From positions 52,033-116,032 of the IMG/VR virus record IMGVR_UViG_3300035698_013589: a stretch of DNA of 64,000 nucleotides. One strand, 5' to 3'. The position numbers were made by a program, and so were the translations under genes. Each line of letters begins with the position of its first letter. The stretch's first letter is position 1. The notes under the pieces were generated by a model. It searched no databases and was not told the origin of the DNA. It was given only the letters and a program-made list of their open reading frames with translations. Below, in pieces: positions 3,459 through 60,250 of the stretch. Source of the stretch: a virus. Lineage: Duplodnaviria > Heunggongvirae > Uroviricota > Caudoviricetes.

Positions 3459-3664
3459 ATAAGAAAGGTCAGTATTATCCAAAACCATCATATACGTCGG
3501 TACATCCAGTGTTAATACTTGGAATTATATTTTTTGTTATACCATTTTTTTTCCCTGTGATAAAATTTTATCCAGCACAATGGGTGAAGACTATATTTAC
3601 AACAGGGGGAATACTAACAATAATAATTGGTGGGGCATTATCAATATTTAAATCATCAAACTAG
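3437..3664 (+). CDS. small membrane protein
   Basis: two hydrophobic helices (LILGIIFFVIPFFF, GGILTIIIGGAL). Confidence 0.4.
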   Translation: MSNKTIMNKKGQYYPKPSYTSVHPVLILGIIFFVIPFFFPVIKFYPAQWVKTIFTTGGILTIIIGGALSIFKSSN

Positions 3665-3676
3665 GAGGAGATTAAT

Positions 3677-3919
3677 ATGAGAACAGAAGGTTTGCAAAGT
3701 TTAGAAGCAAGATATAAGAGATTCATTCGTGATATAGCATTAGTGTTTGTGTATGACGTAGTTGGTTTAGTTTTATTTGTATTAGCATTTATCACAGATT
3801 ATATGGAAGCATTCTTAATACTTGGAACATTCGCTGGAGTCTTTATTGGAATGGGATTCGGTCAAAAGCTTGTTATGTTATATAGAATTTTAAGGAGGAC
3901 AAAATGGAGAAAAGCGTAA
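3677..3919 (+). CDS. small membrane protein
   Basis: AGGAGG RBS (taggaggagattaatATG); two TM helices. Confidence 0.45.
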   Translation: MRTEGLQSLEARYKRFIRDIALVFVYDVVGLVLFVLAFITDYMEAFLILGTFAGVFIGMGFGQKLVMLYRILRRTKWRKA

Positions 3920-4129
3920 GGATAATTAAAGTAGTTACCAGAAACTTTGTTCTTGATTTCTTTGCTAATATTCAGAACATCTTTGGTTCTAATTTAACAT
4001 CATATGAGAAGATGGTTCAAAAAGCAATCACACAGATAGATGATGAACTAAAAGAAAAAGACATCACCCTACAATGGTATAGATATGAAATCACACAATT
4101 GACTAATGGTGCTGTAGCAGTGTTGTTGT

Positions 4130-4639
4130 ATGGAGATAAGAATGAAAGGGAGTAGGGTATTCTTTTTTGCTATAATAGTTCTAGCATTCATGGGATTGTA
4201 TAGTGGTAGCGAGATGTATAAACATGATGCTGAGAATGGTATCAGTCGAGACATATATAATTTAACTGAATCTAAAATGGTATGGAACTCATCTATATTC
4301 CCTATGGAAAGTTATAATGCTTCTATTCATAATGATAGTAATACTATAATGTATATTAGATTAAATAACATAATATATAAGATAGGAGATGCCATGGGGT
4401 TTTCTTTGTTTGAAGGAACTAAAATCTTTATGGAGATTGGGTATAACACTCAAGGCAAATACAATCTTGGGTTCTTTTTAGTATTAATCAAATTAGTTTT
4501 TTGGGCTGTAATTATAGGTGCAATGTTTTATCCTGCAATGTTTATTGGAATGGCTTGTTATGAGTTATTTAAATGGACAAGAAAGTTTATAAAATCAAGA
4601 AACTCTAAAGGAGAAGAGAATCAAAATGAAGACAAATAA
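4130..4639 (+). CDS. membrane protein
   Basis: N-terminal signal/TM and C-terminal TM segments. Confidence 0.4.
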   Translation: MEIRMKGSRVFFFAIIVLAFMGLYSGSEMYKHDAENGISRDIYNLTESKMVWNSSIFPMESYNASIHNDSNTIMYIRLNNIIYKIGDAMGFSLFEGTKIFMEIGYNTQGKYNLGFFLVLIKLVFWAVIIGAMFYPAMFIGMACYELFKWTRKFIKSRNSKGEENQNEDK

Positions 4640-6404
4640 AGGGTCAGTCTATATCCCACAAATGGACAAAGAAGAAGTATTAATATACGACATTGAGACA
4701 GCTGTAGTTGGACCAAAACCTGATGCAACTAAAGATAGACTTAAACTATTTGGGTTCTATTCATACAAGATAGGAAAGTTTGGTATCATTCCATTCACAG
4801 ATAAAGCATCAATTCAGAAGTTAATTGACAAACATAAGTTTATGGTTGGTTTTAACAACGAACAATATGATGACCCAATTCTGAAGAGGGAAGGAATATC
4901 CTTAGAATACAAAAGGATTGTAGACCTAAGAAAAATATTAAAACTTAGAGCAGGTGGAATGATTACTAAGAAAGGAATGCTTGGTAATGTTCTAATGAAA
5001 TATTCTCTGGATTACATTACAAGATTCTTAGATATTGTTGATGAGAACTCAGCTAAAGATGAGATTGATTATAACATATTTAAAAAAGATAGTTGGACTA
5101 AAGAAGAAGTTGCAACTATGAGAAAATATACTCAAAGAGATATTGAAGTAACAAAGAAACTATTTGAATGGGTAGAAGATTATTTTATCAGTTTCAAAGA
5201 TTTTGTTCCAAAGAAAGACGTTGATGGTAAATATTATCTAACAGATACTATTGCTAAGTTTGCTTACAAAGCCATTTGCCATGCGCTTGGTTGGGAGCCT
5301 GTTTATGATAGTGAGGGTTTCCAAAACACTAATCCTGAAGATAGAATCTCTGGTGGTTATGTAGCTTATCCTGCAGGTGAAAAGTTTGAAGGGGACATCT
5401 ATTGTTTAGATTTCAATTGTTTTCCTCCAAATACTAAAATACGAATGGCTGGAAAAGGTGGAGCTGATGGCCACTACCATGATAAAAATATTCAGAATAT
5501 TAAACCTGGCGATACAATAATAAACCAAGATGGTGTGCAGGTAGTTGGTGGTGTGCAGACACAAAATTATACTGGAGATTTGATAGTTATAGAATTAGAA
5601 AATGGTAGACAAATTAAGTGTACGCCAGACCATAAATTCCCAATAATTAGAGATGGGAAAGAGATGGTTGTTGAAGCACAAAACATAAGTGATACAGATG
5701 ATATGTTAACAACTAATTCAAAACATGGTAAACTAAATGGACATCATAAAGGAAAGATTCTAAAGATGTGTGAAGTATGTGGTTCAGAACATTCTGTGTT
5801 CCCATCACATGAACATATTAAAACTTGTTCAACAGAGTGTGCAAATGTATTAAGAGAATTAAATAGTCCAAAAACAAATCTTGGAAAGACTAAATACGAT
5901 ACACCACATCTTATGAGAATGTCTGAAGCGAGAACTGGTGTGCCTAGAACAGATGAACATAAAAATATAATTAGTAATGCTACAAAAGAAGCTATGAAAG
6001 ATGTCAACATGTCTGAAGTGAATAAACAAAGAGATATGTCATTCATGCAAACATCTGAATGGAGATTAAAAGTCGCTCAGTCAAAAATGAATAGTGTGAA
6101 GGCAGGAAAATTTAGATATAAAGATATAAATTTCAGGAGTAATTGGGAAGTTATTGTTGCAAAAAACCTAGACAAGAATAACATAGAGTGGAAATACGAA
6201 CCACAAGTGTTTAAGTTAGATGACGAAACATTCTATTTGCCAGATTTCTATATTCCTAAGTTCGATAAGTGGGTAGAAGTAAAAGGTTATATGTATGACC
6301 ATAGTAGAATAAAAATAGAAAAGTTTATGGAAACACATGAAAATTTTATATTGGTTAATGATTTGAATAGTGTAAAAGACGAGGATGTAAAATGGTTAAG
6401 ATAA
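4626..6404 (+). CDS. polB: Family B DNA polymerase, N-terminal part: exonuclease domain plus motif A half (DFN), fused to intein N-terminal region and endonuclease domain
   Basis: Exo I YDIET, Exo II VGFNNEQYDDPIL, Exo III YTQRDI, then YCLDFN / CFPPNTK (intein block A) and TPDHKF (block B); AGGAG RBS. Confidence 0.85.
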   Translation: MKTNKGSVYIPQMDKEEVLIYDIETAVVGPKPDATKDRLKLFGFYSYKIGKFGIIPFTDKASIQKLIDKHKFMVGFNNEQYDDPILKREGISLEYKRIVDLRKILKLRAGGMITKKGMLGNVLMKYSLDYITRFLDIVDENSAKDEIDYNIFKKDSWTKEEVATMRKYTQRDIEVTKKLFEWVEDYFISFKDFVPKKDVDGKYYLTDTIAKFAYKAICHALGWEPVYDSEGFQNTNPEDRISGGYVAYPAGEKFEGDIYCLDFNCFPPNTKIRMAGKGGADGHYHDKNIQNIKPGDTIINQDGVQVVGGVQTQNYTGDLIVIELENGRQIKCTPDHKFPIIRDGKEMVVEAQNISDTDDMLTTNSKHGKLNGHHKGKILKMCEVCGSEHSVFPSHEHIKTCSTECANVLRELNSPKTNLGKTKYDTPHLMRMSEARTGVPRTDEHKNIISNATKEAMKDVNMSEVNKQRDMSFMQTSEWRLKVAQSKMNSVKAGKFRYKDINFRSNWEVIVAKNLDKNNIEWKYEPQVFKLDDETFYLPDFYIPKFDKWVEVKGYMYDHSRIKIEKFMETHENFILVNDLNSVKDEDVKWLR

Positions 6405-6505
6405 ATAAAATAACACGGGAACCATATAATGGATTAGTGTATGATTTATCTTTAAAGAATGTAGCATCCCCATATTTTTATGCTAATAGAATACTGACAC
6501 ACAAT
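5418..6505 (+). mobile_element. intein in polB motif A (Hint blocks A,B,F,G) carrying a non-LAGLIDADG endonuclease region (CxxC...HxH, two NUMOD3-like repeats, PD-(D/E)xK-like LPDFYIP...WVEVKG)
   Basis: insertion exactly between DFN and SLYP of polymerase motif A; N-terminal Cys, C-terminal HN followed by Ser; length 1088 nt is not a multiple of 3 (frame change near 6392-6404). Confidence 0.75.
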
Positions 6506-7771
6506 AGTCTTTATCCACACATAATGATTCAATGTAATCTTTATTCAAGAAATAAGAAGGTGGCAGATGGATGGCATGGAAGTGACATGTGGAAAGTTGA
6601 AGGGTTCTATAATGATGAAAAACTAAGCCCTGTTTGTAAACTTATGAGAGCATGGTATCATCTAAGATTAAAATATAAAAGAAAATTTGTTACTGGTGAA
6701 GGTAAAGTTGTCAAGATGCTTGATGAAAAGAAAGGAACATCAGCTATGGATTATGTTGGAAAAGAATATCATAGAGTTGTTCAAAATTCAGAAGGGCAGA
6801 TTAAACTTGAGCTTGCAATGATGACTGAAGAGTCAGCAAAGGAATATGTTGAACTTGCAAAAGAAGGTGTGGACAGAAGAGAATACACAATCAAGATTAT
6901 CATTAATACAATTTATGGTTTATTGAATAATGCATACTACAAACTTGTATATGATTTAATGGCTGGTGGAGATTGCACAAGAATAGGAAGACAATGGACT
7001 AAGTATGCTCGTAAGATATTCAAAGAAGCTGGTTATAAAATTGTATATACCGATACAGATTCATGGTATGTTATTGACCATTTGAATGATAAAAAGAAAC
7101 TGCTTGAAGTTAATAAGCAAGTGATTGATAAGATAAAAGCCACTGTTCCGTTTCCGCAATTAACCTTTGATGCAGGTATAGATGATGAGATTAAATACAT
7201 GTTCTTCTTTAAAGGAACAAAGAATGAGGAAAAAGAAACTGATAGTGAGATGGACTCAGAGGATTTCTTGAACAAACCATTAGGACTGATGAAGAAAAAC
7301 TATATCTATGTCACTAAAGAAAATAAGGTTAAGATAAAGAACTTAGGAATCAAGAAGAAAAATATAAGTGCTTTATCAAAAGAAATCTTTTGGAATCATT
7401 TAGTTCCTGTTATTAAATCAGAAGGGCGAGTTAAGTTTAGTGCTGTTGAGATTGAAAACCTTATGCGTAGATTGTTGAAAGATAACATTGAACTATCATA
7501 CATGAGAAAAGAAGTGTCTCCTATATCAGCATATTCTAAATCAATCAATGGCATCCAAGCACAAATATCTAAAGCATATGGACCAGGAATACATTTCCTT
7601 ATACCAAACAAAAGAAACATTGGTGTTGGGAAGAAAGTTAAATATTGTAATGTTGATGAGTTCCAGAAATATAAGATGGAGATTTCTGATATAGATTTCT
7701 CAAACTTCTGGAAAGAACTTAACTATTTTGTCAAAGCAAGGAAACAACCAAACTTATTTGATTGGAATTAA
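6392..7771 (+). CDS. polB: Family B DNA polymerase, C-terminal part: 38-aa intein C-terminal segment (blocks F,G ...ILTHN) followed by SLYPHIM (motif A), KIIINTIYG (motif B), YTDTDS (motif C)
   Basis: starts 13 nt before stop of previous ORF in another frame; GAGGA RBS-like sequence upstream of ATG. Confidence 0.85.
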   Translation: MVKINKITREPYNGLVYDLSLKNVASPYFYANRILTHNSLYPHIMIQCNLYSRNKKVADGWHGSDMWKVEGFYNDEKLSPVCKLMRAWYHLRLKYKRKFVTGEGKVVKMLDEKKGTSAMDYVGKEYHRVVQNSEGQIKLELAMMTEESAKEYVELAKEGVDRREYTIKIIINTIYGLLNNAYYKLVYDLMAGGDCTRIGRQWTKYARKIFKEAGYKIVYTDTDSWYVIDHLNDKKKLLEVNKQVIDKIKATVPFPQLTFDAGIDDEIKYMFFFKGTKNEEKETDSEMDSEDFLNKPLGLMKKNYIYVTKENKVKIKNLGIKKKNISALSKEIFWNHLVPVIKSEGRVKFSAVEIENLMRRLLKDNIELSYMRKEVSPISAYSKSINGIQAQISKAYGPGIHFLIPNKRNIGVGKKVKYCNVDEFQKYKMEISDIDFSNFWKELNYFVKARKQPNLFDWN

Positions 7772-39560: not shown

Positions 39561-39799
39561 CATTTTTCACAAAAAAATATAAAAAAAGTAACATGATAAA
39601 AGTATTTTTTGCAAAACTTAAAGCAAGAGATGAACAAGAAGCAAAATATATATTGCGTGAAAAACATCCTTTTTGTAAAATATTAACATACAGATTTGAA
39701 AAAGATTTTAAATTTGTGCCTAAAGAAAAAAGAGATTATACAAAGAGAATTATTGAAGTTGTGTTTGTGAAAAATATAAAAGATATATGGAACGATTAA
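39557..39799 (+). CDS. hypothetical basic protein
   Basis: ORF in track. Confidence 0.35.
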   Translation: MTFFTKKYKKSNMIKVFFAKLKARDEQEAKYILREKHPFCKILTYRFEKDFKFVPKEKRDYTKRIIEVVFVKNIKDIWND

Positions 39800-41139
39800 A
39801 AATGAAATTACCTGAACAAATAACAAACATCATGGCTCATATAATTAGTCATGGATACAAGGCGTATGTAGTTGGTGGTGCAATAAGAGATTTCAAGATG
39901 AATTTTGAACCACACGATTATGATATTTTCACAAATGCCAGAGGAGAAGAATTGCTGCAACTTTTTCCAGATGGTCATGTTATTGGAAATGAAGAACGAC
40001 AGAACAAGATTTTAACCGTAATGGTTGATGATGTAGAGGTATCTACTTTCAGGCTTAACGGCGACAGAACTGAAATTGGTAACACGCTTGAAGACCATCA
40101 AAAGACTTGTGATTTCACAATGAACTCTATTGCTTGTGATATTAATGGAACTATTGATTTAGAGAATCCTTACAATGAACAAGGAGTTAAAGACATTGCA
40201 GGTAACATGCTAAGGTTTGTTGGTGAAGCTAAAGATAGGATTGAAGAAGACCAATTGAGGATATTGCGAGGACTTAGATTCTTGTTAAAATATAACATGA
40301 TGTGTGATAAAAACACAATGAACTTATTAGAACATCATGAAGTAGATGTTCCTAAAGAACGAATCAGAGAAGAACTTTTGAAGATATTTTCATTAAATCT
40401 TTATAGTGGTTTTTTAAGATTCATATTAAGATTTATGCCTAAATGTATGGCTCATTCACAGAATTTTTCATCAGGCGGAAAATGGCATGATGAAATGCCT
40501 TATGCACATTTTGAAAGTTCTTTTTTAGAGGTATCTAAGATAACATCAAACCCATTATTAAGAATGGCAGTGTTATTACATGATTCAGGAAAAGGTATCA
40601 CAAGAACTGAAGATGACGGCGAAGTTCATTTTTATGAGCATCAAAAAGTTGGTGCTGATGAAGTTAGAGCATGGATGAATGAACATAAATTTAGTAATGA
40701 TGATATTAATTATGTAACTACATTTATCTATAATCATATGCATGGATATGCAGAGAAAGAACCAAGTAAGAAATCATACATCAAATTGTTTGTTGCTCTT
40801 GATGGTGCAGGTATTTCGATAGAAGAATATGTAATGCATCTTTATGGAGATAATCAAGGTAATCATGCTAAACCAAGAATCAAGTTTGGTGATTTTGTTA
40901 AAGATAGTTTATACATCAAAAAGTATTATGAACTTAAATTCACAAATGAACCTTTCAAAATACATGACATGGAAATCTCTGGAAAAGATTTGATTGAAAA
41001 ACATGGAATGAAAGCAGGTAAACAACTTGGTGGCGTATTGAAAGAGATTTTTAATTTGATACTTGAAGGCGATTTGAAGAACGAAAAAGCTGAACTTAAT
41101 AATTATGTGAAGACAAAGGTGATTCCAAATGGAAAGTGA
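39787..41139 (+). CDS. cca: class II tRNA nucleotidyltransferase (CCA-adding enzyme) with C-terminal HD domain
   Basis: GGAIRD head motif, DYDIFT, TFRLNGDR, ERIREE; HD motif LLHDSGKG. Confidence 0.8.
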   Translation: MERLKMKLPEQITNIMAHIISHGYKAYVVGGAIRDFKMNFEPHDYDIFTNARGEELLQLFPDGHVIGNEERQNKILTVMVDDVEVSTFRLNGDRTEIGNTLEDHQKTCDFTMNSIACDINGTIDLENPYNEQGVKDIAGNMLRFVGEAKDRIEEDQLRILRGLRFLLKYNMMCDKNTMNLLEHHEVDVPKERIREELLKIFSLNLYSGFLRFILRFMPKCMAHSQNFSSGGKWHDEMPYAHFESSFLEVSKITSNPLLRMAVLLHDSGKGITRTEDDGEVHFYEHQKVGADEVRAWMNEHKFSNDDINYVTTFIYNHMHGYAEKEPSKKSYIKLFVALDGAGISIEEYVMHLYGDNQGNHAKPRIKFGDFVKDSLYIKKYYELKFTNEPFKIHDMEISGKDLIEKHGMKAGKQLGGVLKEIFNLILEGDLKNEKAELNNYVKTKVIPNGK

Positions 41140-58095: not shown

Positions 58096-59691
58096 ATGAG
58101 TAGGTTCAATAAAACAAGCGTAAGCGACAAGATTACAACAAACAAAGAAGGTTCAAAAGCATTCAAGCTAACTTCTGATTATGAATTATATACATTAGTT
58201 GCAACATCAGCACTAAATAACAAATTCTATGAAAAAACAGATGAAAGAATTGAAAGATTAAGAACTCTGATTAAGAAATGCGACCCTATGTTCGTGGCTA
58301 AATTAGCTGTGTATGCAAGGGAATCAATGTATTTGAGAAGTATTCCATTAGTATTAACTGTGGAACTTAACAAACATCTTAATGAAATCAAAGCTAAGAA
58401 AAGCATGATTACAACATTATCAACAAGAGTAATCCAAAGAGCTGATGAAATTACTGAAATCCTAGCATATTACTCACTTGCTAACAAAGCAAATGAGAAA
58501 GCTGGTGAAGCTGGTCAAGTTAAGAAATTAGCTAAATTATCAAAGGCACTTCAAAAAGGTGTAGCTAATGCTTTCCACAAATTTGATGAATATCAATTTG
58601 CAAAGTATAATAGGAAAACTGACATCAAATTAAAAGATGCATTATTCCTTACACACCCAAAACCTGAAAGTTCTACAGAAACAGAACTCTTTAAGAAAAT
58701 TGCAAGTGATACTTTGGAAACTCCTAAGACTTGGGAAGTTGAAATGTCTACTGCAAAAGGTAAAGACAAAACACCTAAACAAGTTTGGGAAGATATGATT
58801 GATTCAGGTAAACTTGGTTACATGGCTCTAATGAGAAATTTGAGAAACATTCTGCAAGCAGATGTATCCCAAAAACATGTATTCAAAGTAGCTGATATGT
58901 TAGAAAACAAAGAACTTGTTGTGAAAGCTAAACAATTACCATTCAGATTTTTGGCAGCATATAACGAACTGAAAAAGGCTTCAGGCGACTATCCTAGTGG
59001 TAGATACTCCTATTCCGATGAAACAGAAGTGACATTAAAAAATAAAGCAAATGTCACAATCATCTTGGAAGCCCTTGACAACGCAATCAAAGCATCTGTT
59101 GAAAACTTAAAAGGATTCAGCAGAGACATGAATGTAATGATTGCTTGTGATGTTTCAGGTAGTATGATGTCAAAAATCAGTCCTCAAAGTTCAATCGAAA
59201 TGTATGACATTGGATTAACTTTAGGTATGATTTTACAACATAAATGCAAGTATGTAGTTACTGGTATCTTCGGTGATACTTTCAAAACTAAAGCATTCCC
59301 AAGAGATAGTATCCTTGAAAATGTAATGAAGTTTAAGAAAATCGAAGGTGAAGTAGGTTACAGCACTAACGGATACAAAGTACTTGATTACCTAATCCAA
59401 GCAGGCGATAAAGTAGACAAAGTAATGATGTTTACTGATTGTCAAATGTGGAACAGCTCTGGATATAATAGAGATAATCTTATTCCTGCAAGATGGAACA
59501 GATACAAAGAAATTAATCCAGAAGCTAAACTTTACTTGTTCGACATGCAAGGTTACGGAGATACACCAATTGACATGATTCAAAAGGATGTATTCTTGAT
59601 TGCAGGTTGGTCTGACAAAGTGTTTGACATACTTGAAAGTCTTGAAAATGGTGAAGATGCGATTAAAGTAATTAATGACATCAAATTATAA
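58096..59691 (+). CDS. rsr: Ro60 orthologue (TROVE domain plus vWA domain; Rsr-like)
   Basis: TROVE features (RSIPLVLTVEL, LPFRFLAAYNEL like Ro60 PFHILIA...Y), vWA MIDAS MIACDVSGSM and MMFTDCQMW; ~530 aa typical size; true start ATG 58096 after GGAGGTG. Confidence 0.85.
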   Translation: MSRFNKTSVSDKITTNKEGSKAFKLTSDYELYTLVATSALNNKFYEKTDERIERLRTLIKKCDPMFVAKLAVYARESMYLRSIPLVLTVELNKHLNEIKAKKSMITTLSTRVIQRADEITEILAYYSLANKANEKAGEAGQVKKLAKLSKALQKGVANAFHKFDEYQFAKYNRKTDIKLKDALFLTHPKPESSTETELFKKIASDTLETPKTWEVEMSTAKGKDKTPKQVWEDMIDSGKLGYMALMRNLRNILQADVSQKHVFKVADMLENKELVVKAKQLPFRFLAAYNELKKASGDYPSGRYSYSDETEVTLKNKANVTIILEALDNAIKASVENLKGFSRDMNVMIACDVSGSMMSKISPQSSIEMYDIGLTLGMILQHKCKYVVTGIFGDTFKTKAFPRDSILENVMKFKKIEGEVGYSTNGYKVLDYLIQAGDKVDKVMMFTDCQMWNSSGYNRDNLIPARWNRYKEINPEAKLYLFDMQGYGDTPIDMIQKDVFLIAGWSDKVFDILESLENGEDAIKVINDIKL

Positions 59692-59788
59692 TTTTTTTTT
59701 ATTTATATTCATAATCGAAAGAAATAAAAAGGAGAACAACTCCTGTTCATGTTAATGAAGACTGAACCTCTTCATTATTTGTTTGTTT

Positions 59789-60250
59789 AATGGCGTAGAA
59801 TACGGATACTTCAAATCTGGAAAAAAACCGTATTTGTTCTTTCCTTAAATAACCTACTCATGGTGGCGTAGGTTGGTAATACTTCGAAACTGAAAATATC
59901 GTTGGGAGCAATCCCAAAACCTTACCAATCGTTTGTTCCCCTTCATTATCCTAACCAGCTATGGTGGATTATGGGAGCCAAGGATGTGCACACTAACTTG
60001 GTAAACTCAAATAGTAAACAATGGTGGCGTAGAGCACGATTTCATCGAAACTGAAACCAAATTTCAACTAAAAACTTCGTGTTTGATTGTTCCCCACTCA
60101 TATTCAAAAGGTGGCGTAGTAAAGAGTTACTTCGACATGTAATCGAGAGGCCACGGGTTCAAATCCCGTTGCATCCTTCGGGATGTATAGCTCAGTCTGG
60201 TAGAGCGCTAAAATCTCTCTTTACGATTGTTCCCCTTTCATATTCAATCA
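59789..60250 (+). ncRNA. array of five tandem structured RNA-like units (candidate Y RNAs) with conserved junction motif ...GATTGTTCCCCWYTCATATTC...(A)GGTGGCGTAG
   Basis: units start at ~59789, 59862, 59963, 60023, 60110; each has a different but internally complementary helix (ATACGG/CCGTAT, TTGGTAA/TTACCAA, GCACGA/TCGTG, TAAAGAG/CTCTTTA). Confidence 0.5.
60110..60235 (+). ncRNA. YrlA-like Y RNA candidate with circularly permuted tRNA-like module (T-arm 60153-60169, acceptor hairpin closed by TTCG 60170-60187, D-arm 60190-60206)
   Basis: ACGGG-TTCAAAT-CCCGT, TGCATCC-ttcg-GGATGTA, TA-GCTC-AGTCTGGT-AGAGC all readable; enclosed by helix TAAAGAG/CTCTTTA. Confidence 0.55.

What the first reader, a model, noticed from the sequence alone, without database searches (positions are those of the whole stretch)
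60148..60212. Circularly permuted tRNA-like module inside the last repeat unit
Reading 5' to 3' the module contains:
- a T-arm, ACGGG-TTCAAAT-CCCGT
- an acceptor-stem hairpin closed by a TTCG tetraloop, TGCATCC-ttcg-GGATGTA, with one G-U pair
- positions 8-9 (TA) and a textbook D-arm, GCTC-AGTCTGGT-AGAGC

The tRNA order is rotated: T-arm, then acceptor 3' strand, loop, acceptor 5' strand, then D-arm. An enclosing helix, TAAAGAG/CTCTTTA, stands in place of the anticodon stem. This is the architecture described for YrlA-type Y RNAs. In those RNAs a tRNA-like domain hangs off the Ro60-binding stem. The resemblance supports the Y RNA interpretation. It also suggests the RNA could be handled by tRNA-modifying or CCA-adding enzymes; a CCA-adding enzyme is encoded at 39787-41139.
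Basis: partly seen in the sequence, partly recalled or inferred. Interest (0 to 1): 0.75.

Follow-up and report, generated by a model that had tools for sequence, protein, structure and literature searches.

The report
Phage Y RNA with tRNA-shaped module
The sequence is a real, circularly permuted tRNA look-alike inside a small non-coding "Y RNA" that a large phage encodes just after its Ro60 gene; this type of RNA (YrlA) is already known, so it is a correct identification and not a discovery.

Summary
At 60153-60206 the + strand reads T-arm, a 7-bp acceptor-like hairpin closed by UUCG, U8-A9, then D-arm. An 8-bp helix (60119-26/60217-24) and a bulged outer stem enclose it. It is unit 4 of a four-unit array 419 nt downstream of a Ro60 (TROVE+vWA) gene.

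Rfam's YrlA model aligns its tRNA-like core here (35.7 bits, below its threshold of 69). A strict pattern found the same module in 93 viral contigs. Where a Ro60-like ORF was in the fetched DNA (63 loci), it was always on the same strand, median 265 nt away. On 100 distinct homologues the permuted fold is 92.8% paired, with compensatory changes in 32 of 35 pairs.

Its own acceptor and D helices are at background (45% and 56% paired), so it is an artefact.

One correction: there is an anticodon-arm-like hairpin (60131-60147), conserved and covarying.

Verdict: a new viral member of the known YrlA class. Ro60 binding, modification and CCA addition are inferred, not shown.

The parts
58096..59691 (+). 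Ro60/Rsr homologue (TROVE ring + vWA domain). The start codon is uncertain: the ORF opens at TTG 58003 and the first ATG giving MSRFNK is at 58096.
   Evidence: Pfam TROVE 1.6e-31 and vWA_Ro60 1e-8. Best solved relatives are Thermus phage phiLo Ro60 9KOP/9L5Y (E 2.9e-24) and Xenopus Ro60 1YVP (2.5e-5).
59789..60095 (+). Units 1-3 of the array (about 59789-59845, 59862-59941, 60023-60095). These are simple stem-loop Y-RNA-like units with the same 5' (A/G)TGGCGTAG and 3' TTGTTC(C/T) ends and no tRNA-like module.
   Evidence: Direct-repeat families D1 and D2. Each unit folds into an outer stem plus an inner helix. They are not matched by model R1.
60106..60239 (+). Unit 4 as a whole: the YrlA-type Y RNA.
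   Evidence: Model R1 scores it 130.7 bits with full-length coverage. It is 73-76% identical to units in Xanthomonas/Xylella phages that lie next to a TROVE+vWA gene.
60110..60116 (+). Outer-stem 5' strand GGTGGCG, with U60112 bulged. It pairs with 60228-60235 (TG..CCCC). It contains GGCGTAG, one base away from the published GNCGAA(N)G Ro60-recognition motif. This is the presumed Ro60 docking site.
   Evidence: MFE fold. Helix 1 is 89.3% paired with 4/4 pairs showing compensatory change. Homologues range from GGGCCGAAG/GTCCGAAG to GGTGGCGTAG. The motif is from Chen 2014.
60228..60235 (+). Outer-stem 3' strand (TGTTCCCC).
60119..60126 (+). Enclosing helix, 5' strand GTAAAGAG.
   Evidence: Inverted repeat I20, 8/8 complementary. 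91.4% paired with 8/8 pairs showing compensatory change. For example GTGGGCAG/CTGCCCAC in Xanthomonas phages.
60217..60224 (+). Enclosing helix, 3' strand CTCTTTAC.
60127..60130 (+). TTAC, the conserved YUAY linker.
   Evidence: TTAC in 54 of 100 homologues, with the other YUAY form TTAT in 7 more and near-variants (GTTC, TTTC, ATAC) making up much of the rest. YUAY is described in Chen 2014.
60131..60147 (+). Anticodon-arm-like hairpin TTCGA-CATGTAA-TCGAG (5 bp, 7-nt loop). It corresponds to the 'V' stem-loop of Chen 2014.
   Evidence: 91.9% paired, 4/5 pairs with compensatory change. 40 distinct stems. Loop consensus N-U-N-N-U-A-A: U33 69/84, U36 60/84, A37 66/84, A38 75/84. The window has A at position 33.
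60148..60152 (+). Variable-loop equivalent AGGCC (tRNA positions 44-48).
   Evidence: AGGTC in 56/84 modules. C48 pairs with G15: 15:48 is GC in 94 and AU in 3. 26:44 is GA in 67 and AU in 18.
60153..60169 (+). T-arm ACGGG-TTCAAAT-CCCGT.
   Evidence: 99.6% paired, 4/5 pairs with compensatory change. G53, U54, U55, C56, A58 and C61 are invariant.
60170..60187 (+). Acceptor-stem hairpin TGCATCC-TTCG-GGATGTA (7 bp, closed by a UUCG tetraloop).
   Evidence: 94.2% paired, 7/7 pairs with compensatory change. 82 distinct sequences among 84 modules, 68 of them with at least 6/7 pairs, against a control mean of 3.3.
60188..60206 (+). U8-A9 followed by the D-arm GCTC-AGTCTGGTA-GAGC.
   Evidence: 100% paired. 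U8, A14, G18 and A21 are invariant or nearly so.
60207..60216 (+). G26 plus the conserved single-stranded linker CTAAAATCT.
   Evidence: RCTAAAA was part of the search pattern. It is invariant between this AT-rich phage and GC-rich Xanthomonas phages. Its function is unknown.
39787..41139 (+). CCA-adding enzyme gene. Context only; no link to the RNA has been shown.
   Evidence: Pfam PolyA_pol head, tRNA_NucTran2_2 and HD domains. No such gene is in the flanks of 102 related loci.

Best explanation
Window 60106-60239 (+) encodes a YrlA-class Y RNA of a large uncultivated phage. It is the last of four Y-RNA-like units, probably co-transcribed with the Ro60 gene just upstream.

The 5' and 3' ends pair into a bulged outer stem carrying a GNCGAA-like motif, which by analogy docks on the phage Ro60 ring. 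An 8-bp helix leads to a junction from which a complete tRNA body is built in rotated order: anticodon-arm-like hairpin, variable loop, T-arm, acceptor stem closed by UUCG, U8-A9, D-arm, G26. All the nucleotides that form the tRNA elbow and core tertiary contacts are present, so the module should fold into the tRNA L-shape.

By analogy with characterised systems, the module is the effector-facing end of the Ro60 RNP. It would be modified by host TruB and Dus enzymes, resist nucleases, and tether Ro60 to a host partner such as PNPase.

Shown here: the sequence anatomy, the conserved and covarying secondary structure, two covarying tertiary pairs, and tight same-strand linkage to Ro60 across viral contigs.

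Inferred: expression, Ro60 binding, modification, effector recruitment, and any RNase P or CCA processing.
For: Anatomy and fold.

Rfam YrlA core match: 35.7 bits, model positions 24-84, E 5.3e-6.

Ro60 gene 419 nt upstream on the same strand.

Homologous unit next to TROVE+vWA genes in Xanthomonas/Xylella phages, with compensatory changes in every helix.

The same module is in 93 viral contigs. In 63 of 63 loci where a Ro60-like ORF is in the fetched DNA it is on the same strand, with median distance 265 nt and 62 within 1.5 kb.

Structure count on 100 distinct sequences: 92.8% paired against 64.2% shuffled and 38-46% slid, with 32/35 pairs showing changes on both sides.

Tertiary positions are tRNA-like, and 15:48 and 26:44 covary.

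Re-ordered in silico into tRNA order, 79 of 84 modules are called tRNA by ARAGORN, against 11 of 83 in the native order.

Literature: YrlA architecture, Psi55 and D modification, and Ro60 adjacency within 4 kb on the same strand, including 22 phages (PMC4201824). Crystal structure of the tRNA-like domain (10.1101/312249). A phage Ro60 binds phage Y-like RNAs and host PNPase (PMC12135203).
Against: - The Rfam YrlA score is below the gathering threshold (35.7 against 69), and only the core aligns. None of 18 related viral loci reaches it either.
- The 5' motif is GGCGTAG, not GNCGAA(N)G.
- The enclosing helix is not contiguous with the D-stem as it is in the Salmonella crystal structure, so the junction geometry may differ.
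- There are no expression, binding or modification data for this phage.
- Thermodynamic z-scores are modest (-1.2 to -2.1).
- The covariation alignment was fitted to the model, and shuffles ignore phylogeny (caveats stated). The alignment-free counts agree.
- About 8 viral loci with at least 2 kb on both sides of the module show no Ro60-like ORF.
Confidence: 0.85

Rival explanations
1. It is an ordinary co-linear tRNA-Thr(UGU) gene at 60109-60179. The acceptor would be GGTGGCG/TGCATCC, the D-arm GTAA-AGAG-TTAC, the anticodon arm TTCGA-CATGTAA-TCGAG, and the T-arm is the same one.
For: ARAGORN calls tRNA-Thr(tgt) at 60109-60179. Rfam tRNA gives 30.0 bits against a gathering score of 29. GenBank OQ622092.1 annotates the homologous unit as tRNA-Thr.
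Against: - In the window the acceptor has 2 mismatches in 7, the D-loop lacks GG, and position 33 is A.
- The span does not fold as a cloverleaf.
- Across 100 homologues its own two helices are at background: acceptor 45.1% and D-arm 56.3% paired, against 38-51% for slid controls.
- At the window's offset the co-linear acceptor averages 3.0 pairs of 7, equal to the random-partner control of 3.3.
- ARAGORN makes such a call in only 11 of 83 modules, with identities scattered over Asn, Ser, Thr, Pro and Lys.
- Real phage tRNAs in the related loci score 45-67 bits.
Confidence: 0.02
2. The RNA is a YrlA, but it is opened after transcription as in Mycobacterium smegmatis. RNase P would cut 5' of G60181. 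The new 3' end after the acceptor strand would be trimmed and CCA-tailed, possibly by the phage's own enzyme. The result would be a two-piece RNA with a free tRNA-like CCA end.
For: - The acceptor stem is exactly 7 bp. Chen 2014 name that length as the determinant that lets only M. smegmatis YrlA be cut by RNase P and receive CCA.
- The phage encodes a CCA-adding enzyme.
- A few relatives carry NCCA right after the 7-nt 3' strand: L034 ACCA, and L013/L050 ACCACCAG in a 34-nt loop.
- Open-acceptor, co-linear versions exist in viral Ro60 loci, one with an encoded ACCA (L006:5272-5407).
Against: - The stem is capped by a UUCG tetraloop, so there is no single-stranded leader or trailer.
- In the family, 37 of 100 loops are 4 nt, mostly GNRA or UUCG, which argues for a stably closed hairpin. 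Stem length beyond 7 bp is not conserved.
- No CCA-adding enzyme is linked to the module in the flanks of 102 loci.
- The window loop reads UUCG, not NCCA.
Confidence: 0.12
3. It is a permuted tRNA gene in the sense known from Cyanidioschyzon and some archaea. The transcript would be circularised or ligated across the 26/27 junction and opened at the acceptor loop to give a functional decoding tRNA.
For: All four arms, with tRNA-exact lengths, are present in rotated order. Re-ordered in silico, the window module is called tRNA-Thr(tgt), and 79 of 84 homologues are called tRNA. Wang et al. raise this possibility for YrlA in general.
Against: - No splicing-endonuclease/ligase pathway of this kind is known in bacteria.
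- Removing about 40 nt between G26 and position 27 would destroy the conserved, covarying Ro-type stem.
- The 'anticodon' loop is conserved as N-U-N-N-U-A-A and is not diversified across codon families, and the window has A33.
- The module tracks Ro60 genes, not codon usage.
Confidence: 0.02
4. It is a decaying remnant of two adjacent tRNA genes (the 3' half of one and the 5' half of the next), with no function of its own.
For: Adjacent genuine tRNAs give partial hits to the model at positions 26-103. In L061 the 'permuted' match is the junction between two tandem units.
Against: The two acceptor strands pair perfectly with each other and covary in 82 distinct sequences. The enclosing and outer helices also covary. 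Conservation spans AT-rich and GC-rich phages.
Confidence: 0.01

Closest known systems
YrlA (Y RNA-like A) of bacteria and phages: Rfam RF02553; Chen et al. 2014 RNA 20:1715; S. Typhimurium tRNA-like domain structure PDB 6CU1
   Same: - It lies next to Ro60 on the same strand.
- The 5' and 3' ends form the stem carrying the Ro60-recognition-type motif.
- The internal order is (V hairpin)-T arm-closed acceptor stem-D arm.
- YUAY precedes the V hairpin.
- T and D loops are near-invariant, and the Levitt pair 15:48 covaries.
- Phage members were already reported (22 phages, including mycobacteriophages, CcrColossus and Bacillus phage G).
   Different: - It scores only 35.7 bits on the Rfam model (threshold 69), over the core only.
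- The 5' motif is GGCGUAG.
- The helix leading to the Ro stem is separated from the D-stem by a conserved CUAAAAUCU linker, whereas in the Salmonella structure it directly continues the D-stem as an 'anticodon stem'.
- A hairpin with the dimensions of an anticodon arm (5 bp, 7-nt loop, U33/U36-A37-A38 conserved) sits exactly at positions 27-43.
- It is the last of a four-unit array in which the other three units lack the tRNA module.
M. smegmatis YrlA (Chen et al. 2014)
   Same: It has a 7-bp acceptor stem and is processed from a precursor together with a second Y RNA (YrlB) encoded next to Rsr.
   Different: The M. smegmatis RNA is cut by RNase P and receives CCA. Here the stem is capped by a UUCG tetraloop and processing is untested. 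The array lies downstream of Ro60, not upstream.
Thermus phage phiLo Ro60 with Yrl1/Yrl2 (NAR 2025, PMC12135203; PDB 9KOP, 9L5Y)
   Same: It is the closest solved relative of the window's Ro60 (E 2.9e-24). It is a phage-encoded Ro60 with several Y-like RNAs encoded beside it, and the complex forms with host PNPase in vitro.
   Different: The phiLo paper describes stem-bulge-stem RNAs with a CGAA motif and does not use the terms 'tRNA-like' or 'YrlA' (zero occurrences in the main text). Those RNAs lie upstream of the gene.
Canonical tRNA (Rfam RF00005)
   Same: It has all four arms with canonical lengths, the variable loop AGGYC, and tertiary-contact nucleotides U8, A14, G15, G18, G19, A21, G26, A44, C48, G53, U54, U55, C56, A58 and C61.
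   Different: The strand order is rotated and the acceptor stem is closed with no free CCA end. About 40 nt of Y-RNA stem are inserted between positions 26 and 27. The co-linear reading that the software reports is not conserved.
Circularly permuted tRNA genes of Cyanidioschyzon merolae and some archaea
   Same: The 3' half precedes the 5' half, and the acceptor ends are joined by a short loop in the primary transcript.
   Different: Those are matured into decoding tRNAs by a splicing endonuclease and ligase. Here the extra sequence is a conserved functional stem, and no such pathway is known in bacteria.

Membership tests
YrlA-type Y RNA | Encoded within about 4 kb of a Ro60/TROVE gene on the same strand (the criterion used by Chen et al. 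2014). | tested here: met
   Ro60 stop at 59691 and unit 4 start at 60110, same strand. The same holds in 63 of 63 viral loci with Ro60 in the fetched DNA.
YrlA-type Y RNA | Near-invariant T and D stem-loops in the order T, closed acceptor-like stem-loop, D. | tested here: met
YrlA-type Y RNA | Score at or above the Rfam RF02553 gathering threshold (69 bits). | tested here: not met
   35.7 bits, model positions 24-84 of 114 only. No viral relative among 18 loci reaches it either. This is a limit of a model seeded on bacterial sequences and does not mean a defining structural feature is absent.
YrlA-type Y RNA | GNCGAA(N0-1)G motif near the 5' end (the likely Ro60 contact). | tested here: inconclusive
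   The window has GGCGUAG, one mismatch. Homologues of the same module carry exact GGGCCGAAG or GUCCGAAG, and intermediate forms exist.
YrlA-type Y RNA | Conserved YUAY followed by a 'V' stem-loop upstream of the T-arm. | tested here: met
   UUAC at 60127-30 and the hairpin at 60131-47.
YrlA-type Y RNA | tRNA-type tertiary pairs, including a covarying Levitt pair 15:48. | tested here: met
   G15:C48 in the window. Family counts are GC 94 and AU 3. 26:44 also covaries.
YrlA-type Y RNA | Physically bound by Ro60/Rsr; carries Psi55 and dihydrouridine. | not testable with these tools
   Needs immunoprecipitation and modification mapping.
Canonical co-linear tRNA | A 7-bp acceptor stem formed by the 5' and 3' ends, and a D-arm 5' of the anticodon arm, both conserved in homologues. 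| tested here: not met
   Acceptor 45.1% and D-arm 56.3% paired, which is background. Mean 3.0 of 7 pairs at the fixed offset.
Canonical co-linear tRNA | Score typical of real tRNAs on RF00005. | tested here: not met
   30.0 bits against 45-67 bits for phage tRNAs in the related loci.
Permuted tRNA gene (matured to a decoding tRNA) | 3' half, then linker, then 5' half; the intervening sequence is dispensable and excised. | tested here: not met
   The order is met. The intervening stems, however, are conserved and covary (helices 1-3) and are linked to Ro60. Excision itself cannot be tested here.

The most novel reading that the evidence does not exclude
In this viral subgroup the module is a complete four-armed tRNA mimic, including an anticodon arm whose loop is held at N-U-N-N-U-A-A (U33, U36, A37, A38). 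The Ro-type stem is inserted between positions 26 and 27.

The phage Ro60 RNP would then present a full tRNA decoy or substrate to anticodon-loop-reading factors. From my own knowledge, candidates are the t6A37 machinery, which requires U36-A37, or host anticodon nucleases. In some phages the RNA would be opened by RNase P and CCA-tailed.

The occurrence of both circular permutations in viral Ro60 loci would mean that function needs only the tRNA body plus the Ro stem, in either strand order.
Probability: 0.12. Interest if true: 0.65.

Novelty: new member of a known kind. Interest (0 to 1): 0.3.

Why it matters
The identification is correct but not new in kind. YrlA RNAs with a permuted tRNA-like domain next to Ro60 have been known since 2014, including in phages.

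The follow-up adds practical value in three ways:
- The module is common in uncultivated viral genomes (at least 93 IMG/VR contigs with one strict pattern).
- The curated Rfam model misses all the viral copies examined at its threshold.
- tRNA finders sporadically mis-call them as ordinary tRNAs of varying identity, and at least one GenBank phage record carries such a mis-annotation.

It also yields a 133-position covariance model and two leads worth an experiment: the conserved anticodon-arm-like hairpin, and the coexistence of both strand orders.

Tried and rejected
- Rfam at gathering threshold on the whole window returned only the marginal tRNA hit. The YrlA match appears only with permissive thresholds.
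- DNA search of the 5-kb neighbourhood against isolated phages found no related genome. Only the 125-nt RNA unit matched.
- L004 and L005, Ro60 relatives at 44-50% identity, show no module in the 900 nt downstream of Ro60. Their upstream sides were not read.
- MAFFT alone misplaced gaps in the hairpin region. I therefore used fixed-offset counts and a model-based alignment.
- Thermodynamic z-scores are weak evidence here (-0.6 to -2.1).
- The ARAGORN hairpin-shuffle control is only weakly discriminating: 57 of 84 modules are still called tRNA, against 79 of 84 intact. That test therefore supports the tRNA body more than the anticodon-arm reading.
- The test for CCA-adding-enzyme co-occurrence in locus flanks was negative, but it is limited to a few kb around each module.
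- Two review articles (PMC10870794, PMC6047535) are not held.
- An alternative local pairing (GAGA 60145-48 with TCTC 60215-18, plus GGC/GCT, in the MFE) competes with the hairpin. I set it aside because the hairpin stem covaries and the variable-loop nucleotides are held as tRNA-type tertiary partners.
Full report
**1. What is in the sequence**

Reading the + strand, unit 4 of the array runs as follows:

| Element | Sequence | Coordinates |
|---|---|---|
| Outer-stem 5' strand | GGTGGCG | 60110-16 |
| Spacer | TA | 60117-18 |
| Enclosing helix, 5' strand | GTAAAGAG | 60119-26 |
| YUAY linker | TTAC | 60127-30 |
| Hairpin | TTCGA-CATGTAA-TCGAG | 60131-47 |
| Variable-loop equivalent | AGGCC | 60148-52 |
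| T-arm | ACGGG-TTCAAAT-CCCGT | 60153-69 |
| Closed acceptor hairpin | TGCATCC-TTCG-GGATGTA | 60170-87 |
| U8-A9 | TA | 60188-89 |
| D-arm | GCTC-AGTCTGGTA-GAGC | 60190-60206 |
| Position 26 | G | 60207 |
| Linker | CTAAAATCT | 60208-16 |
| Enclosing helix, 3' strand | CTCTTTAC | 60217-24 |
| Spacer | GAT | 60225-27 |
| Outer-stem 3' strand | TGTTCCCC | 60228-35 |

The enclosing helix is 8 bp and lies outside the stated coordinates (I20).

The MFE fold of the whole unit recovers the outer stem with a bulged U, the enclosing helix, and the T, acceptor and D hairpins. The 65-nt module alone folds into the three hairpins, with the MFE structure accounting for 47% of the ensemble.

**2. Context**

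The unit is the fourth of four tandem units that share 5' (A/G)TGGCGTAG and 3' TTGTTC(C/T) ends. Units 1-3 fold as simple stem-loops without a tRNA module.

The array starts about 100 nt after the stop codon of a 531-562-aa protein with TROVE and Ro60-type vWA domains. That protein's closest solved relative is the Ro60 of Thermus phage phiLo (E 2.9e-24), followed by Xenopus Ro60.

The window as a whole looks like a large phage. It encodes a clamp-loader-like AAA+ protein, an intein-containing family B DNA polymerase, a CCA-adding enzyme with an HD domain, an SPFH protein and a helicase, all on one strand. The nearest Ro60 in isolated phages is only 32.5% identical. The nearest metagenomic relatives are viral contigs of 193-204 kb.

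No convincing + strand promoter lies inside the array. A weak hairpin at 59730-44 is the only terminator-like site between Ro60 and unit 1. Co-transcription with Ro60 followed by processing is plausible but not shown.

**3. The rival that had to be dealt with**

ARAGORN calls tRNA-Thr(tgt) at 60109-60179. Rfam's tRNA model scores 60110-60177 at 30.0 bits, just above its threshold of 29.

This reading shares the T-arm and takes the 60131-47 hairpin as its anticodon arm. It then uses the outer-stem strand GGTGGCG as acceptor 5' strand (two mismatches against TGCATCC) and GTAA/TTAC as a D-stem with a 4-nt loop. The span does not fold as a cloverleaf.

**4. Comparative evidence**

*Xanthomonas and Xylella phages.* The whole unit has 73-76% DNA matches in twelve 43-kb Xanthomonas/Xylella phages. 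There it is the last unit of a five-unit array directly upstream of a TROVE+vWA gene. One record annotates it as tRNA-Thr.

The four-way alignment shows compensatory replacement of the enclosing helix (GTAAAGAG/CTCTTTAC against GTGGGCAG/CTGCCCAC). It shows the same for the T-stem and the acceptor hairpin, while the linkers stay invariant.

*Viral contigs.* A strict pattern (T-loop, 18-40 nt, TAGCTCAG...AGAGCRCTAAAA) hit 93 viral contigs and gave 85 distinct modules.

Alignment-free counts at fixed offsets:
- The closed acceptor has 7/7 pairs in 45 and 6/7 in 23 of 84 modules, with 82 distinct sequences. Random partners average 3.3 pairs.
- The co-linear acceptor at the window's offset averages 3.0 pairs, which is chance.
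- The T-stem is fully paired in 82 of 84 modules, with 31 distinct stems.

The enclosing helix is 6/6 in 62 of 84 modules, with 47 distinct strands.

*Covariance model.* A model built from 15 of these modules with my structure (R1) scores the window unit at 130.7 bits. It finds no other hit in the window, and 102 hits at E < 1e-11 elsewhere.

On that alignment (100 distinct rows) the permuted structure is 92.8% paired. Shuffles give 64.2% and slid partners 38-46%. Changes on both sides occur in 32 of 35 pairs. Per helix:

| Helix | Cells paired |
|---|---|
| Outer stem | 89.3% |
| Enclosing helix | 91.4% |
| Hairpin | 91.9% |
| T-arm | 99.6% |
| Acceptor | 94.2% |
| D-arm | 100% |

On the same alignment, the two helices specific to the co-linear cloverleaf are 45.1% (acceptor) and 56.3% (D-arm) paired, which is background.

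ARAGORN makes a co-linear call on only 11 of 83 modules, with identities scattered over Asn, Ser, Thr, Pro and Lys. Genuine phage tRNAs in the related loci score 45-67 bits on Rfam. The co-linear tRNA is therefore a software artefact produced by a real T-arm plus a real hairpin.

*Caveats.* The alignment was fitted to the model, and the shuffles ignore relatedness. The fixed-offset counts do not depend on the alignment and agree with it.

**5. Link to Ro60**

An iterated profile search of ORFs found a Ro60-like ORF in the fetched DNA of 63 of the 93 loci located by RNA pattern alone. In all 63 it is on the same strand as the module. The median distance is 265 nt, and 62 are within 1.5 kb. The module lies upstream of Ro60 in 47 loci and downstream in 11, as it does here.

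Most of the other 30 loci end within 1 kb of the module. About 8 have at least 2 kb on both sides and no detectable Ro60.

This meets the adjacency criterion Chen et al. used to define YrlA candidates.

**6. What it is**

Rfam's YrlA model aligns its positions 24-84 (short closing stem, T-arm, closed acceptor, UA, D-arm) to 60146-60209 at 35.7 bits, E 5.3e-6.

Chen et al. 2014 describe the same parts:
- near-invariant T and D stem-loops;
- a variable AS stem-loop between them;
- a less conserved V stem-loop upstream of T, introduced by YUAY;
- a 5' GNCGAA(N)G motif;
- a covarying Levitt pair.

All of these are present here:
- YUAY is UUAC.
- The V stem-loop is the hairpin at 60131-47.
- The Levitt pair is G15:C48.
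- The 5' motif is GGCGUAG, one base off. Homologues of the same module form a continuum from exact GGGCCGAAG or GUCCGAAG to the window's form.

The sub-threshold Rfam score is a property of the model. None of 18 viral loci reaches it.

Phage YrlA-like RNAs were already reported in 22 phages. A phage Ro60 has also been shown to bind phage-encoded Y-like RNAs and host PNPase in vitro.

**7. Refinement of the anatomy**

The hairpin at 60131-47 has a 5-bp stem (40 distinct stems, 91.9% paired) and a 7-nt loop. It is followed at once by a 5-nt AGGYC that matches tRNA positions 44-48.

The loop is conserved as N-U-N-N-U-A-A: U33 in 69, U36 in 60, A37 in 66 and A38 in 75 of 84 modules. The window's A33 is an exception.

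Positions 26 and 44 covary: G-A in 67, A-U in 18 and A-G in 5 of 100 sequences. In tRNA that pair sits between the D-stem and the anticodon stem.

By contrast, the enclosing helix is 10 nt from the D-stem and 21 nt from position 44. So the place of the anticodon stem is occupied by a three-way junction, and the hairpin is the better positional analogue of the anticodon arm.

Re-ordering each module in silico into tRNA order makes ARAGORN of 84 modules as tRNAs, the window module as Thr(tgt). With the hairpin shuffled the count is 57, and with a foreign acceptor strand it is 29. This supports a complete tRNA body. The hairpin control is only moderately discriminating.

This is a reinterpretation of the published 'V' arm, not a new element.

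**8. How it most likely works**

Shown here: the anatomy, the conserved fold and the Ro60 linkage.

Inferred from the characterised systems:
- The outer bulged stem docks on Ro60.
- The tRNA-shaped domain faces outward as the effector-binding or stabilising end.
- It is a likely substrate for TruB (U60159) and Dus enzymes.
- The RNP may engage host PNPase.

Whether the acceptor hairpin is opened is unresolved:
- For opening: the stem is exactly 7 bp, the feature that lets M. smegmatis YrlA be cut by RNase P and CCA-tailed, and the phage encodes a CCA-adding enzyme.
- Against opening: the stem is capped by UUCG. In the family, 37 of 100 loops are 4 nt, mostly GNRA or UUCG. No CCA-adding enzyme lies in the flanks of the related loci.

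**9. Side observations bearing on origin**

Several viral Ro60 loci carry the opposite strand order, with an open 7/7 acceptor stem and the Y-type stem closed by a loop:
- L006:5272-5407, with an encoded ACCA and 45.2 bits on Rfam's tRNA model;
- L015;
- L061, with two units in tandem;
- L082.

In L061 the 'permuted' match is the junction between two tandem co-linear units. This fits the dimeric-tRNA origin discussed by Wang et al..

**10. Verdict**

It is a new viral member of the known YrlA class. Interest is modest.

The useful by-products are the mis-annotation warning, a working covariance model for the viral subgroup, and two leads: the conserved anticodon-like loop and the existence of both permutations.

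Noticed in passing
L006:5272-5407 (IMGVR_UViG_3300033153_012477); also L015 from 2154 (+), L061 from 525 and 371 (-), L082 from 2025 (+): These carry the reverse strand order of the same chimera. An open 7-bp acceptor stem is followed by UA, the D-arm and RCTAAAA-type linker. Then comes a Y-type stem closed by a loop, then the hairpin, the variable loop, the T-arm and the acceptor 3' strand. L006 encodes ACCA and scores 45.2 bits on Rfam's tRNA model. In L061 two such units are tandem, and the 'permuted' pattern match is the junction between them.
   Followed up: partly
L001:4001-4068 = GenBank OQ622092.1 20624-20691 (Xanthomonas phage 10KY502B): The homologue of window unit 4 is annotated as tRNA-Thr in the public record. 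ARAGORN calls the same unit tRNA-Asn in phages Tabio and MET23-P3. These are mis-annotations of a YrlA-type RNA.
   Followed up: yes
L001:3541-4128 (Xanthomonas phage 10KY502B), upstream of the TROVE+vWA gene at 4171-5490: A five-unit array in a 43-kb phage. Three units have tRNA-like modules (3541-3673, 3779-3911, 3997-4128) and two are simple units. So small phages carry Ro60 with multi-copy Y-RNA arrays, not only jumbo phages.
   Followed up: partly
Window 60136-60142, and the equivalent loop in 84 viral modules: The 7-nt hairpin loop is conserved as N-U-N-N-U-A-A, with U33, U36, A37 and A38. From my own knowledge, this matches the U36-A37 requirement for t6A37 formation. All the common 'anticodons' are NNU (GUU, GCU, UGU, UCU, UUU). 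The window has A at position 33.
   Followed up: partly
Window 60207-60216, and homologues: The single-stranded linker (G/A)CUAAAA(UCU) after the D-arm is invariant between this AT-rich phage and the GC-rich Xanthomonas phages. It is more conserved than any helix, and its role is unexplained.
   Followed up: no
L030:101-374 (-), and L030 generally: A permuted tmRNA (Rfam RF04321, 110 bits) and about 25 tRNA genes lie within a few kb of the Ro60/YrlA module. 45 of the 93 viral loci have at least 3 ARAGORN tRNA calls in the fetched DNA, so the module often sits in phage tRNA clusters. The window itself has no genuine tRNA.
   Followed up: no
L015, L071, L073, L074, L082, L086, L102 (and L039): These are modules with at least 2 kb of flanking DNA on both sides and no detectable Ro60-like ORF. 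They could be Ro60-independent copies, or have very divergent or distant Ro60 genes.
   Followed up: no
Window 59950-60017: The spacer between units 2 and 3 contains TATGGTGGATTATGGGAGCC, which resembles a degenerate unit start (ATGGTGG). It may be a decayed fifth unit.
   Followed up: no
Window 4626-7771: The family B DNA polymerase appears split over two ORFs. The first carries an intein splicing domain (Pfam PF14890, 5.3e-9).
   Followed up: no
Window 59730-59744: A small hairpin, AGGAGAACAACTCCT, lies between the Ro60 stop codon and unit 1. It is flagged terminator-like on both strands and could be an attenuator or a processing site for the array transcript.
   Followed up: no
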